This document shows positions 27,001 through 30,000 of a stretch of 64,000 nucleotides of DNA, one piece after another. This DNA is from Escherichia coli O157:H7 (GTDB lineage Bacteria; Pseudomonadota; Gammaproteobacteria; Enterobacterales; Enterobacteriaceae), in assembly GCF_013167455.1 (NCBI RefSeq), contig NZ_CP038330.1, one strand, 5' to 3'. Position numbers: made by a program. Positions within the stretch are counted from its first letter, which is position 1, and every line of letters starts with the position of its first letter.

Positions 27001-30000
27001 TCCCACAGGAACCCACTACCAAGCCACATATCGTCCGGCGTGTCCTTGATGTACTTTTGGAGCTCCGCAATAGAAATAAACTCCAGATCACGCCCCTTCA
27101 AATGCTTTTGGAGCAGGTGAAGTTTGATAGCCTTTGGCAAACGAGCCATCGCCATCACGCCACAGATCCCCGTCATCCAATAGAAGGGCTCCGGAGGCAT
27201 CGTGCTGACTTGCTCTACGGCCAAAGCCGCGCCGGAGGCGGCAAGCCAGCCTGCTACAGCATTTTTTTCATAGTTGGGCCGCCACGGCATCTCGTAGGCG
27301 AGCGGGTCATAACTCATTGTCATGTTTCATTTACCTCTAAATACAGTTTTCCCTGACGTTTCTTGAGCAAAGGCCGTCTCTGTGCCCGGCTCAGCATCCC
27401 GCAGAGGATGTGTTTGCTGATGCCGATGTTTTCACCGGCAATCATGTCGAAGGCTTTGTCACTGGTTACTAAGCAGCCATCCTCTTCCAGGACAGGTGTC
27501 ACGAGCCATCTGCCCGAGCGTTTTTGGATCATGTCCTTGAGCATCTGGAGTGCTTTCTGAGGCGTAACACCAGACGGCAAGAAATCTTCCGCGTTGATGT
27601 CTTTCGGGTTTGTTTTCGCCTTAGGCGGCTCAAACTCCCTAACCTCTGGCTCTTCCCTTTCTCGCACCTCGACGTGTCCCAATTCCTTCTCACGCTCAAC
27701 TTTGGGCTCAGGAGCCACTGGTTGAACCTCCCGCTTAGGAAGGCGAGCCACGTTCTGTTTTTCTTGGACCGGCTGGCGCTGCGGCTCTTCAACCGGAGAA
27801 GTAACATCGACCTTCTTCTCCTTCTGCTGTGGCTGGGAGTCCTTACCTTTCGCCTTTTGTTCAGGCGAGGGTTTACCGGCGTTAACCTCAGGCTTCTGCT
27901 GCTGCGCCTTTTTTCGGCTTTGTTGTTTCGGTGCAGACTTATTCTTGCTTGCATCCAAGCCAGGGGGAGAGACGAGCTCAAAGGCATCCTGGTATCCCCC
28001 CATTGACGCCTCGGCATCCTTAATGGCCGCTACGACTGCATCTGAAAGCTGCTCCGCCAGTACAATTGCCTTCACTCCGCTGAAATCACGAACTTTGCGA
28101 CCTGGCATAATCGGGTCTGGAACAATCGCGTTGGCGTGGGACAGCTTCGAGAGAACCTCTGACGGCGCACCCAGCGACCGAGCGCCATCCGGGTACAAAA
28201 TGACGGCTTGACCCTTCATCAGGCATAGGACTTCGCCCAGCGTCGTTTTACCTTCCAAAACAGGCATGATCGCTTGTTCAAGCAACGCCGATGCTTCTCC
28301 GTACCCGGCTAACATCTCAACGAGTAAGGTCTTTGCGTCTTTCTCATGCAGATTAGGTTTGTCCGTAGGTGGCATTGCTGGCGCTGGTGTTGTTTGTTCT
28401 GGTGCGTCAGTCAGCATAGGGAGCGGCTCAATCGCCCATGATGGCGGTTCATCAGAACTACCGAACATTGGAAAGTCATCGCCCTGCAGGGAGTTTTGTT
28501 CTTGTGGAACGAAGTCCTGTTTTGGCTGCTTCTCTTGCTTTCCGGGCATTGCCACATCTGGGATTTCTGAGTTTGTTGCGTCAGTGCTGGCTGTCTCTGC
28601 CGATGCGCTGAATGCGTCAAACGGAAAGTCGATGTCCCCCAGTCCACCCCCAACATCCTTGAGTGCTTGTAACGGATTGTCGTTTGCCAAAGGTGGTGCG
28701 TTTTTGGCAATGTCCTGAGGGGACAAATCCTCTTTTGCCTCTGGTTTGTGGGGTTGTTTCTCTGTATCACTCTTCGGTTTTGCTTTGCCCGGTTTGCTCT
28801 GCGGCTTACCCTTCTTGCCAGCGTCAGGCTTAGATGATTCCGTTGATCCAGCATCTTTTTGCTCTGGTTTCTCCTCGACAGCATCTGAGGTGCTTTTCAG
28901 CATCTCCATCGCATCACCAAAGCCAAGACCAGCTAGAGCTTTCTCTGCTTCCTGCTCTGCGGCCAACATGTCATCGTTCAGAGCTGACACATCTTCCTCT
29001 TGGTCGTCATCGACTTCCTCAGGATCAACGAACTCAATCTCAGCGTCCTCAACATCACCAACAACTTCCGCAGCAACAGCCGCAGGAGGCTCAGTCGTAA
29101 ACACCAGGTCGTTTGATTCGAGTCGGAGCATCAAGATCTTCACCGATCCCGCCGCCTCCTGGAGCATCTCAGGCAAAACTTCCCAGTAGCGGTAGTACGC
29201 ACGTTCACCCTTCTCCTGCACCGTGTTTGGTACAGCAAAACCACGTTCGATGAGAATGTCGGCCAGTGTGTCAGGGTCTCGTGGAATACCGGGGATCTTG
29301 TCGTGGCTGATCAAGTCATAAAGGTCCCCAAGCTGTTTCCAGGCAATGAATACACCTTGGTTGAGGTGCCAGACTTTCGCGCCTGGCTCATTGACCTTCC
29401 ATTTTCCGGTTTTAACCAGGCGGCGGATGGCATCGAACACGTACCGCTCGACAGGCACACCATAGGAGAACTCGTCCACATCGAGACGACTCTGGCGAAG
29501 GTCCCGTGAGACGCTCTCTTGGTCAGCGCGAAGCATCAGCTTGGTCACAGGCTGATTGACGCTGGTTCCTGAGATAGCTTCCAGCATCGCTTCCATGATG
29601 GACGGGCCAGACTTGGACAGAAACTCCCGAGTCTCAGCCGGAATAATTCGATCCACCGCCAGCAGCGAGAATTGCTCATGTCTTTTGTGTCGCTTGTCGC
29701 GCCACCGGATAAAGTAACGGTCGATTTCGTGACGGTGTGCCCAGTCATGAAGTGACTCCGAATACGGGTTCCATGTGATTGACCCGTCTTTGTCCGTAAT
29801 GGACACATCCGAGAGCGGTTTACCCACATCATGCAGCAGCCCGGAGAAACAGCTCGCCAGTCTCCAACGCGGCTCATTGTCACGGCGTTCACGAGGCGTC
29901 CCCTCGATGGAAAAGATAACTGACTCAGATGCCTGAGCTGCCCAGAAGGCCACTTCAAGCCCATGTCGGAACAGACCACCAGCGCCACGGTGGTGGTGTG

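What the first reader, a model, noticed from the sequence alone, without database searches (positions are those of the whole stretch)
27800..29100. Long lysine/glutamate/proline-rich low-complexity tract inside TraI (a similar acidic tract in ParB at 41700-42200)
Roughly 400 residues of TraI between the N-terminal HD domain and the C-terminal region are low-complexity and charged. ParB has a comparable acidic, glycine-rich linker. These may be disordered linkers; their size is unusual and could vary between plasmids.
Basis: seen in the sequence. Interest (0 to 1): 0.25.

Follow-up and report, generated by a model that had tools for sequence, protein, structure and literature searches.

The report
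Disordered linkers in IncC TraI relaxase
The charged, low-complexity stretch in this IncC plasmid's TraI relaxase is real, but it is two flexible disordered linkers on either side of a small folded winged-helix domain, a layout already described for this relaxase family and for KorB-type ParB proteins, so the finding is ordinary.

Summary
The window is IncC (IncA/C) plasmid backbone. "TraI" is the 990-aa MobH-family relaxase at 27320-30292 (-).

The compositional bias is real: K+E+P is 29% against 16% in the window's other proteins (p about 3e-11). It is not one 400-residue tract.

- AlphaFold and conservation split it into IDR1 (aa 415-650, acidic then Lys/Pro-rich), a folded winged-helix domain (aa 651-764) and IDR2 (aa 765-899, Lys/Gln/Pro/Glu-rich). 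IDR2 runs beyond the reported coordinates to the C-terminal MobI-binding domain (aa 900-990).
- There are no nucleotide tandem repeats.
- Across 82 homologues the linkers range from 49-364 aa and 12-175 aa. Within IncA/IncC the protein length is almost fixed (987-992 aa).
- dN/dS is 0.27-0.51 in the linkers and about 0.05 in the domains.
- A few conserved motif islands (NPLxxL...DFPFDAF, EPPSWAIEPLP, KQNxARLPKRE) sit inside the linkers.
- ParB (41545-42726, -) has a 103-aa acidic linker, which is 16-133 aa in homologues.

Both features are already known. [quoted passage not shown]

Modest additions from this work: the middle domain has a TraI_2_C-like fold, and the linkers carry candidate short linear motifs.

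The parts
27320..30292 (-). traI (mobH), the 990-aa MobH-family relaxase of an IncC plasmid. Its stop overlaps the traD start by 4 nt.
29051..30229 (-). Relaxase domain (TraI_2/HD), aa 22-414, including the conserved extension LVFTTEPPAxV..VVG (aa 396-414).
   Evidence: PF07514 and NF041494. pLDDT is mostly 80-95. Foldseek hit to 3KQ5 at E 3e-10. dN/dS 0.04.
28343..29050 (-). IDR1, aa 415-650, net charge -33. It contains an acidic tract (415-448), a weak helix island (441-466), a Lys/Pro/Ser-rich tract (467-522) and a mixed Asp/Phe/Pro segment (523-650).
   Evidence: pLDDT<50. Mean alignment occupancy 0.59 and conservation 0.17. Composition. All natural deletions map here or in IDR2.
28610..28726 (-). 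Conserved island in IDR1, aa 523-561: LSPQDIAKNAPPLANDNPLQALKDVGGGLGDIDFPFDAF. This is a candidate short linear motif.
   Evidence: D[FY]P[FA] occurs in 38/82 homologue linkers against 0.7 expected by shuffling, and NPLxx[LI] in 20/82 against 0.3. Island dN/dS is 0.08.
28403..28459 (-). Conserved island in IDR1, aa 612-630: SSDEPPSWAIEPLPMLTDA.
   Evidence: PPxW occurs in 25/82 against 0.4 expected. P616 is conserved in 84% of 57 non-redundant sequences.
28001..28342 (-). Middle folded domain M, probably domain 'X' of the preprint, aa 651-764. It is a winged-helix domain with a TraI_2_C-like fold.
27596..28000 (-). IDR2, aa 765-899, Lys/Gln/Pro/Glu-rich (K+E+P 42%). It contains the island KQNVARLPKRE (aa 845-855, nt 27728-27760).
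   Evidence: pLDDT<50. Composition. [KR]QN occurs in 43/82 against 4 expected. dN/dS 0.27-0.33.
27323..27595 (-). C-terminal domain, aa 900-990, identified as the MobI-binding domain (MIBD, winged helix).
   Evidence: pLDDT 81-95 with order H-E-E-H-H-E-E. Conserved in 82 of the 120 listed homologues. The function comes from preprint 10.1101/2025.04.21.649884.
41545..42726 (-). parB, a KorB-type ParB of 393 aa.
   Evidence: PF02195, PF17762 and PF08535. Best PDB match is KorB 8QA8 at E 9e-21.
41752..42063 (-). ParB acidic, Gly/Asn/Ser-rich linker, aa 222-325, ending in the conserved GGDALPPLPKD.
   Evidence: Hydrophobic fraction 7-13% and net charge down to -11 per 30 aa. The linker is 16-133 aa (median 91) in 115 homologues. 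It is positionally equivalent to the experimentally disordered KorB linker 253-294 (PMC5577506).

Best explanation
The tract is two intrinsically disordered, compositionally biased linkers. Together they make IncC TraI a 'beads-on-a-string' protein: HD/alternative-3H relaxase domain, acidic/KP-rich IDR1 (about 236 aa), winged-helix domain, Lys-rich IDR2 (about 135 aa), then the winged-helix MobI-binding domain.

Shown here: predicted disorder, composition bias, absence of repeats, indel tolerance, relaxed but non-neutral evolution, conserved charge polarity, and conserved motif islands.

From the literature: the C-terminal domain binds MobI and selects the oriT-mobI module, and a related MOBH relaxase is elongated in SAXS.

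Inferred: the linkers act as flexible tethers. While the C-terminal domain is anchored on MobI at oriT, the catalytic domain and the middle winged helix can search for and reach nic. Being already unfolded, the linkers should also ease passage of the relaxase through the type IV secretion channel. The embedded islands are probably short linear motifs that dock a partner not yet identified.

The ParB tract is the equivalent flexible linker between the DNA-binding/CTPase part and the C-terminal domain of a KorB-type ParB.

The confidence of 0.8 refers to 'disordered inter-domain linkers of a known kind'. I put the specific tether, translocation and docking roles at about 0.45.
For: - Disorder: pLDDT<50 over aa 415-442, 455-650 and 765-899, with confident flanking domains.
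- Composition: K+E+P enriched at p=3e-11 and hydrophobic residues 17% against 34%.
- No repeats.
- The N, M and C blocks are conserved in order in 82 homologues, while L1 is 49-364 aa and L2 is 12-175 aa.
- Deletions in natural variants (P0015, P0012, P0016, P0033) all fall inside the IDRs.
- IncC type 1, type 2 and IncA indels all lie in the low-complexity parts.
- dN/dS is 0.27-0.51 in the IDRs, 0.03-0.07 in the domains and 0.08-0.10 in the islands.
- L1 is net negative in 62/64 homologues, and L2 is more positive than L1 in 59/64 (Wilcoxon p=6e-11).
- Motif enrichment is far above the shuffled expectation.
[quoted passage not shown] The MIBD binds MobI and is required for IncC transfer, and Fig. 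5A of that preprint shows pLDDT and MobiDB disorder for pVCR94 TraI. The KorB linker is disordered by NMR and SANS (PMC5577506).
Against: - Low pLDDT and composition are proxies for disorder. No biophysical data exist for this protein.
- Homologues with very short linkers keep all three domains (for example P0114, 716 aa, with L1 49 and L2 42 aa). Long linkers and the DFPF island are therefore not needed for the basic relaxase plan.
- Variants lacking the islands exist, such as P0016 and P0033. Whether they are functional is unknown.
- The tether and translocation roles and the motif-partner idea are inference. No partner was identified, and no other protein in the window shares the motifs.
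- The island definition partly used the same sequences as the dN/dS test, so that test is somewhat circular.
- The ParB linker was assessed by composition and homologue lengths only. No structure model was made.
Confidence: 0.8

Rival explanations
1. The tracts are neutral filler. They would be selectively unimportant insertions or expansions tolerated between essential domains, with no role of their own beyond not interfering.
For: Linker length varies enormously, 49-364 and 12-175 aa. Short-linker homologues keep the same domains. Large natural deletions and IS insertions map in these segments. Sequence conservation is low, 0.17-0.20.
Against: dN/dS of 0.27-0.51 is well below 1. Length is held at 984-992 aa across IncA/IncC and relatives despite 22-39% amino-acid divergence in the tracts. 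Charge polarity is conserved in 59/64 homologues. The motif islands have domain-like constraint.
Confidence: 0.15
2. The Lys/Pro- and Glu/Pro-rich parts are semi-rigid extended spacers of polyproline-II type, like the TonB proline-rich region, and set a defined distance between domains. On this reading they are not random-coil tethers.
For: Proline is 12-13%, with many K-P and E-P steps in aa 470-520 and 800-890. One homologue carries a source annotation of 'TonB' (P0106). Length is tightly conserved within IncA/IncC. The TonB comparison itself is from memory.
Against: There are no regular dipeptide or nucleotide repeats. Length is very plastic across the family. AlphaFold gives no regular structure, although it rarely models PPII.
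Confidence: 0.12
3. The oppositely charged linkers (acidic IDR1, basic IDR2) drive multivalent electrostatic self-association or DNA co-condensation. This would concentrate relaxosome components at oriT or at the coupling protein.
For: Charge polarity is conserved: L1 is negative in 62/64 and L2 is more positive in 59/64. The Lys-rich IDR2 lies next to two winged-helix domains.
Against: There is no direct evidence. TraI lacking the HD domain did not self-associate in BACTH (preprint). GGI TraI is monomeric by SEC-MALS (PMC6736028).
Confidence: 0.05
4. The region hides something else: an overlapping gene in another frame or strand, an internal start, or a structured RNA. The odd composition would then be a by-product.
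For: Several 147-162-aa alternative-frame ORFs overlap the tract on both strands.
Against: Five of the six alternative ORFs acquire stops or frameshifts in IncA or type-2 IncC, while traI stays intact. There are no Rfam matches. Promoter- and terminator-like sites are not above shuffled expectation inside the gene. Such ORFs are expected in codon-biased, stop-poor sequence.
Confidence: 0.02

Closest known systems
TraI of the Neisseria gonorrhoeae gonococcal genetic island (MOBH2 prototype; Heilers et al. 2019, PMC6736028)
   Same: It has an N-terminal TraI_2 HD/alternative-3H relaxase domain, then a putatively disordered, non-conserved middle part of variable length (50-200 aa in the family, about 300 aa in GGI TraI), then a globular C-terminal domain. 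It is elongated in SAXS.
   Different: IncC TraI has two disordered segments and two small winged-helix domains. Its last domain is the MobI-binding domain, not Pfam TraI_2_C. The TraI_2_C-like fold sits in the middle of the protein and is not recognisable by sequence.
TraI of IncC plasmid pVCR94 (preprint 10.1101/2025.04.21.649884)
   Same: It is essentially the same protein: all IncC alleles in PLSDB are at least 97.8% identical to the window's. The preprint's Fig. 5A shows an AlphaFold pLDDT plot and MobiDB-lite disorder with domains TraI_2, 'X' and MIBD. The MIBD is shown to bind MobI and to be required for transfer.
   Different: The preprint does not discuss the disordered segments or 'X' in its text. 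A direct sequence comparison with pVCR94 was not possible.
Short-linker MOBH12 relaxases of about 700-785 aa (e.g. P0114 716 aa, P0117, P0102, P0088). From memory, this is the size of SXT/R391 TraI.
   Same: They have the same N, M and C blocks in the same order.
   Different: Their linkers are only 49-91 aa and 12-42 aa, and they lack the NPL...DFPFDAF and KQN islands.
KorB of IncP-1 plasmid RK2 (Hyde et al. 2017, PMC5577506)
   Same: It is a ParB-family CTPase/DNA-binding protein whose DNA-binding domain is joined to a C-terminal domain by an intrinsically disordered linker. KorB is the best PDB match of the IncC ParB.
   Different: The KorB linker is about 41 aa (residues 253-294). The IncC ParB linker is 103 aa and strongly acidic. 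The IncC C-terminal block is not recognised by any Pfam model.

Membership tests
MOBH (MobH / TraI_2) relaxases | N-terminal TraI_2 relaxase domain scoring above curated thresholds | tested here: met
   NF041494 scores 427 bits against a cut-off of 200, over aa 44-390. PF07514 scores 297 bits against a cut-off of 23.9. Foldseek hit to 3KQ5 at E 3e-10.
MOBH (MobH / TraI_2) relaxases | Alternative 3H motif (HHH) and HD phosphohydrolase motif | tested here: met
   SHHHRGAGG at aa 98-106 and LLHDVGK at aa 152-158 in the translation. H100, H101, H154 and D155 are invariant in the 77-sequence alignment.
MOBH architecture (Heilers 2019) | Putatively disordered, poorly conserved middle part of variable length after the relaxase domain | tested here: met
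   pLDDT<50 for aa 415-650 and 765-899. Conservation 0.17-0.20. Linker lengths 49-364 and 12-175 aa.
MOBH architecture (Heilers 2019) | C-terminal TraI_2_C (PF07515/DUF1528) domain, by sequence | tested here: not met
   No PF07515 hit for the whole protein or for the M or C alignments, even at E up to 10. No 2IPQ hit by profile search of PDB sequences. Distant M-domain homologues carry only PF07514.
MOBH architecture (Heilers 2019) | A domain with the TraI_2_C fold (PDB 2IPQ) | tested here: inconclusive
MOBH12 relaxases with MobI-binding domain (preprint 10.1101/2025.04.21.649884) | C-terminal winged-helix domain of about 92 aa | tested here: met
   Residues 900-990 fold confidently (pLDDT 81-95) with order H-E-E-H-H-E-E. 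The block is conserved at the C-terminus of homologues.
MOBH12 relaxases with MobI-binding domain (preprint 10.1101/2025.04.21.649884) | Binding to MobI and requirement for transfer | not testable with these tools
   Reported for pVCR94 by BACTH and domain swaps. Not tested for this allele.
KorB-type ParB | ParB_N, HTH_ParB and KorB domains above thresholds | tested here: met
   PF02195 51 bits, PF17762 42 bits and PF08535 131 bits. KorB 8QA8 at E 9e-21.
KorB-type ParB | [quoted passage not shown] | tested here: inconclusive
   Composition (hydrophobic 7-13%, D+E 31%) and length variability of 16-133 aa fit a disordered linker. No structure prediction or biophysics was done for this protein.
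KorB-type ParB | KorB_C-type dimerisation domain | tested here: not met
   No Pfam family matches aa 319-393, even at E up to 10. The fold was not tested.
Tandem-repeat low-complexity proteins | Head-to-tail nucleotide or peptide repeats underlying the biased composition | tested here: not met
   TRF finds nothing in 27200-30400 or 41500-42800. Only chance two-copy matches were found.

The most novel reading that the evidence does not exclude
The conserved islands inside the linkers are genuine short linear motifs. These are NPLxxL...D-F-P-F-D-A-F at aa 540-561, EPPSWAIEPLP at aa 614-624 and KQNxARLPKRE at aa 845-855. They would dock the relaxase on a partner such as the TraD coupling protein, another T4SS or relaxosome component, or a host replication/SSB-interacting factor. 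In addition, the middle winged-helix domain 'X' would be the MOBH1 counterpart of TraI_2_C. MOBH1 and MOBH2 relaxases would then share one ancestral plan, with the MobI-binding domain as a later C-terminal add-on.
Probability: 0.3. Interest if true: 0.4.

Novelty: already known. Interest (0 to 1): 0.15.

Why it matters
As stated, the finding matters little. Disordered middle regions of variable length are a published hallmark of MOBH relaxases, the disorder profile of IncC TraI has been shown in a preprint, and KorB-type ParB linkers are experimentally disordered.

IncC plasmids are major carriers of multidrug resistance. Their relaxosome is a proposed target for conjugation inhibitors, and SGI1's CtiC already exploits the MobI-binding domain. 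For that work, the dissection here gives precise domain and linker boundaries, a fold assignment for the uncharacterised middle domain, and three or four candidate docking motifs that could be mutated directly.

Tried and rejected
- **Nucleotide or peptide tandem repeats as the source of low complexity.** None were found.
- **M and C as duplicates of one another.** They have the same secondary-structure order, but hhalign gives probability 0.6%, so no relationship is demonstrated.
- **Bridging M to Pfam TraI_2_C by sequence.** The Pfam scan of 24 M sequences, a PDB profile search, a deep profile search of 1.84 billion representatives and Pfam on 10 distant hits all failed to connect them.
- **Overlapping genes in alternative frames.** Five of six are broken in IncA or type-2 IncC.
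- **Structured RNA, or internal promoters and terminators.** Nothing above expectation.
- **Shared docking motif in other proteins of the window.** None. The only other D[FY]P hits lie on the antisense strand of IS26 copies.
- **Fold search against afdb50.** The library was unavailable.
- **Direct comparison with pVCR94.** The record is not in the collection.
- **ParB C-terminal block against Pfam.** No hit.
- **IS insertions in traI.** Both observed cases fall in IDR-coding DNA, but two events are not significant.
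Full report
**Identity and context.** The window is IncC (IncA/C2) plasmid backbone. The 2,973-nt gene at 27320-30292 (-) matches 971 plasmid records. Of these, 563 are at least 99% identical, and nearly all are typed conjugative, IncC or IncA, MOBH. Its 990-aa product is a MobH-family relaxase. NF041494 scores 427 bits against a cut-off of 200 over aa 44-390, and PF07514 covers aa 51-357. It is followed by the coupling-protein gene traD, with a 4-nt overlap, and preceded by topoisomerase III. The parA/parB pair lies about 12 kb away.

**Checking the observation.** The finding's coordinates correspond to aa 398-831.
- K+E+P makes up 28.8% of that stretch, against 16.1% in 53 other non-overlapping ORFs of the window (p=2.7e-11). 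Hydrophobic residues drop from 34% to 22%.
- Thirty-residue windows at or below the background's first entropy percentile cover aa 395-522 and 781-895.
- The strongly negative AT skew of the + strand at 27-29 kb is the nucleotide signature of the A-rich Lys/Glu/Gln codons.
- Tandem Repeats Finder finds nothing in traI or parB, and the repeat finder returns only short two-copy matches. The bias is compositional, not repeat-based.

**The tract is composite.** AlphaFold2 with a 77-sequence alignment gives pLDDT<50 for aa 415-442, 455-650 and 765-899. The confident domains are aa 22-414, 651-764 (pLDDT 84-94) and 900-990 (pLDDT 81-95), plus a weak helix at 441-454. The "roughly 400 residues" are therefore two disordered segments:
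- IDR1 is about 236 aa with net charge -33.
- IDR2 is about 135 aa with K+E+P at 42%.

They are separated by a folded 114-aa domain that lies inside the reported coordinates. IDR2 runs about 200 nt beyond the reported lower bound. IDR1 itself is heterogeneous: an acidic run (415-448, up to -15 per 30 aa), a Lys/Pro/Ser-rich run (467-522), and a mixed Asp/Phe/Pro-rich part.

**The folded pieces.**
- The middle domain M, modelled alone, has pLDDT 82 and pTM 0.73. It is a winged helix.
- Foldseek on the full-length model also returns 2IPQ with probability 1.0.
- By sequence there is no link to Pfam TraI_2_C. A profile search of 1.84 billion cluster representatives finds only 146 proteins. The ten distant hits scanned with Pfam all carry TraI_2 and none carries PF07515.
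- M and C are not detectably related to each other.
- The C block is the MobI-binding domain (MIBD) described for A/C plasmids. [quoted passage not shown] It determines which oriT-mobI module is used (preprint 10.1101/2025.04.21.649884).
- That preprint's Fig. 5A already shows the pLDDT and MobiDB-lite disorder profile of pVCR94 TraI with manually added domains "X" and "MIBD". Neither X nor the disordered parts is discussed in the text. Equating M with X is my inference, because only two extra folded domains exist.

**Length comparison.** In 82 homologues that retain the N, M and C blocks, the first linker is 49-364 aa (median 236) and the second is 12-175 aa (median 114). The IncC values are therefore typical, not unusual.

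Within the IncA/IncC clade the length is nearly fixed:
- 990 aa in the window (identical to sampled IncC records), 992 aa in the second IncC allele (97.8% identical; I take the two to be IncC types 1 and 2, which was not checked), and 987 aa in IncA.
- The indels are +2, -4, -1 and +2 aa, all in low-complexity segments.
- Relatives down to 83% identity are 984-991 aa.
- Rare deletion variants of 874, 905, 833 and 809 aa have lost only IDR sequence.

**Evolutionary rates** (window allele against IncA):

| Segment | dN/dS |
|---|---|
| N domain | 0.04 |
| M domain | 0.06 |
| C domain | 0.07 |
| IDR1 outside islands | 0.37 |
| IDR2 | 0.27 |
| IDR1 islands | 0.08 |

Synonymous divergence is similar throughout, at about 0.4. 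The linkers are relaxed five- to eight-fold but are not neutral. Bulk properties are kept: L1 is net negative in 62/64 non-redundant homologues, and L2 is more positive than L1 in 59/64 (p=6e-11).

**Conserved islands.** Inside otherwise unalignable sequence a few motifs recur across homologues whose M and C blocks are as little as 38-55% identical to the window's:
- NPLxxL...G..D-F-P-F-D-A-F (aa 540-561). D[FY]P[FA] occurs in 38/82 linkers against 0.7 expected by shuffling.
- EPPSWAIEPLP (aa 614-624). PPxW occurs in 25/82 against 0.4 expected.
- KQN[VIL][AS]RLPKRE (aa 845-855). [KR]QN occurs in 43/82 against 4 expected.

They are absent from short-linker homologues of about 700-785 aa. Counts are inflated by relatedness, but the motifs are seen in clearly divergent lineages. 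No other protein in the window carries them. They look like short linear motifs, and their partner is unknown.

**ParB.** The 393-aa protein has ParB_N, HTH_ParB and KorB domains, and its best solved relative is KorB of RK2. Residues 222-325 (nt 41752-42063) have D+E 31%, Gly 14% and only 11% hydrophobic residues. The tract ends in a conserved GGDALPPLPKD just before the C-terminal block. In 115 homologues this linker is 16-133 aa, with a median of 91. The equivalent KorB linker (residues 253-294) is experimentally disordered and remains so in DNA and KorA complexes (PMC5577506). The C-terminal block matches no Pfam model, and its fold was not tested.

**Other readings checked.** Five of the six long alternative-frame ORFs overlapping the tract are broken in IncA or the second IncC allele. 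No Rfam family matches in 25-44 kb. Promoter- and terminator-like sites inside the gene are not above shuffled expectation.

**Mechanism.**
- Shown: disorder proxies, indel tolerance, relaxed but real constraint, conserved polarity, and conserved islands.
- From the literature: MOBH relaxases are elongated monomers with a disordered middle (PMC6736028). The IncC C-terminal domain anchors TraI to MobI at oriT.
- Inferred: the two linkers are flexible tethers. They let the catalytic domain and the middle winged helix operate within reach of a MobI-anchored C-terminus. They lower the unfolding cost of exporting the relaxase, and they display docking motifs.
- Rivals: neutral filler (0.15), a semi-rigid PPII spacer (0.12), electrostatic condensation (0.05) and a hidden overlapping feature (0.02).

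**Verdict.** The "disordered linker" interpretation is right, "unusual size" is wrong, and variability holds across the family but barely among IncA/IncC plasmids. The feature is already known for this family and for this very protein. The incremental additions are the TraI_2_C-like fold of the middle domain and the candidate motifs.

Noticed in passing
window 27323-30229 (traI), compared with L001: Synonymous divergence between the window's traI and the second IncC allele (97.8% identical) is uneven. dS is 0.021 in the N domain, 0.09-0.11 across IDR1 and the M domain, and about 0.05 in IDR2 and C. This looks like a recombination patch in mid-traI, not uniform divergence.
   Followed up: partly
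L004 (NZ_OU015341.1) and L005 (NZ_CP065463.1): Two sequenced IncC plasmids carry IS elements inside traI. IS100 is at about codon 440, in the acidic IDR1. ISKpn18 is at about codon 845, in IDR2, and separates the MobI-binding domain from the rest. Both records are still typed 'conjugative' by MOB-suite, although the relaxase is split.
   Followed up: partly
window 55597-57853 (-), also about 18.1-19.9 kb: There are five IS26 transposase copies in the window. Three are in direct tandem, with tnp ORF starts spaced exactly 767 nt apart (55597, 56364, 57131). From memory this is shorter than a full 820-bp IS26. Two of the three encode ...RIINATLGF... where the first encodes ...RIIGATLGF..., which I recall as the G184N variant. 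The region lies in the high-GC (0.55-0.66) accessory part of the window, from about 44 kb onward.
   Followed up: no
window 30266-30292 (-), TraI aa 1-9: The N-terminus of TraI (MLKALNKLFGG) is predicted as a short helix (aa 2-9, pLDDT about 63). [quoted passage not shown]
   Followed up: no
window 30445-31077 (+): The ORF divergent from traI encodes a protein with a lipoprotein-like signal (MRQLIAILGVAILAGC). It has no Pfam match and is annotated 'hypothetical' in IncC records.
   Followed up: partly
window 28109-28126 (-), TraI aa 723-728 (within the M domain, nt 28001-28342): The weak profile match of the M domain to DNA polymerase lambda (E about 0.03-0.07) extends over the conserved stretch 'IVPDPIMPGRKV'. 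It is probably chance. However, the conserved basic MPGRK loop lies in a loop between helix 710-719 and strand 735-737, possibly the wing of the winged helix, and would be a natural DNA-contact candidate.
   Followed up: no
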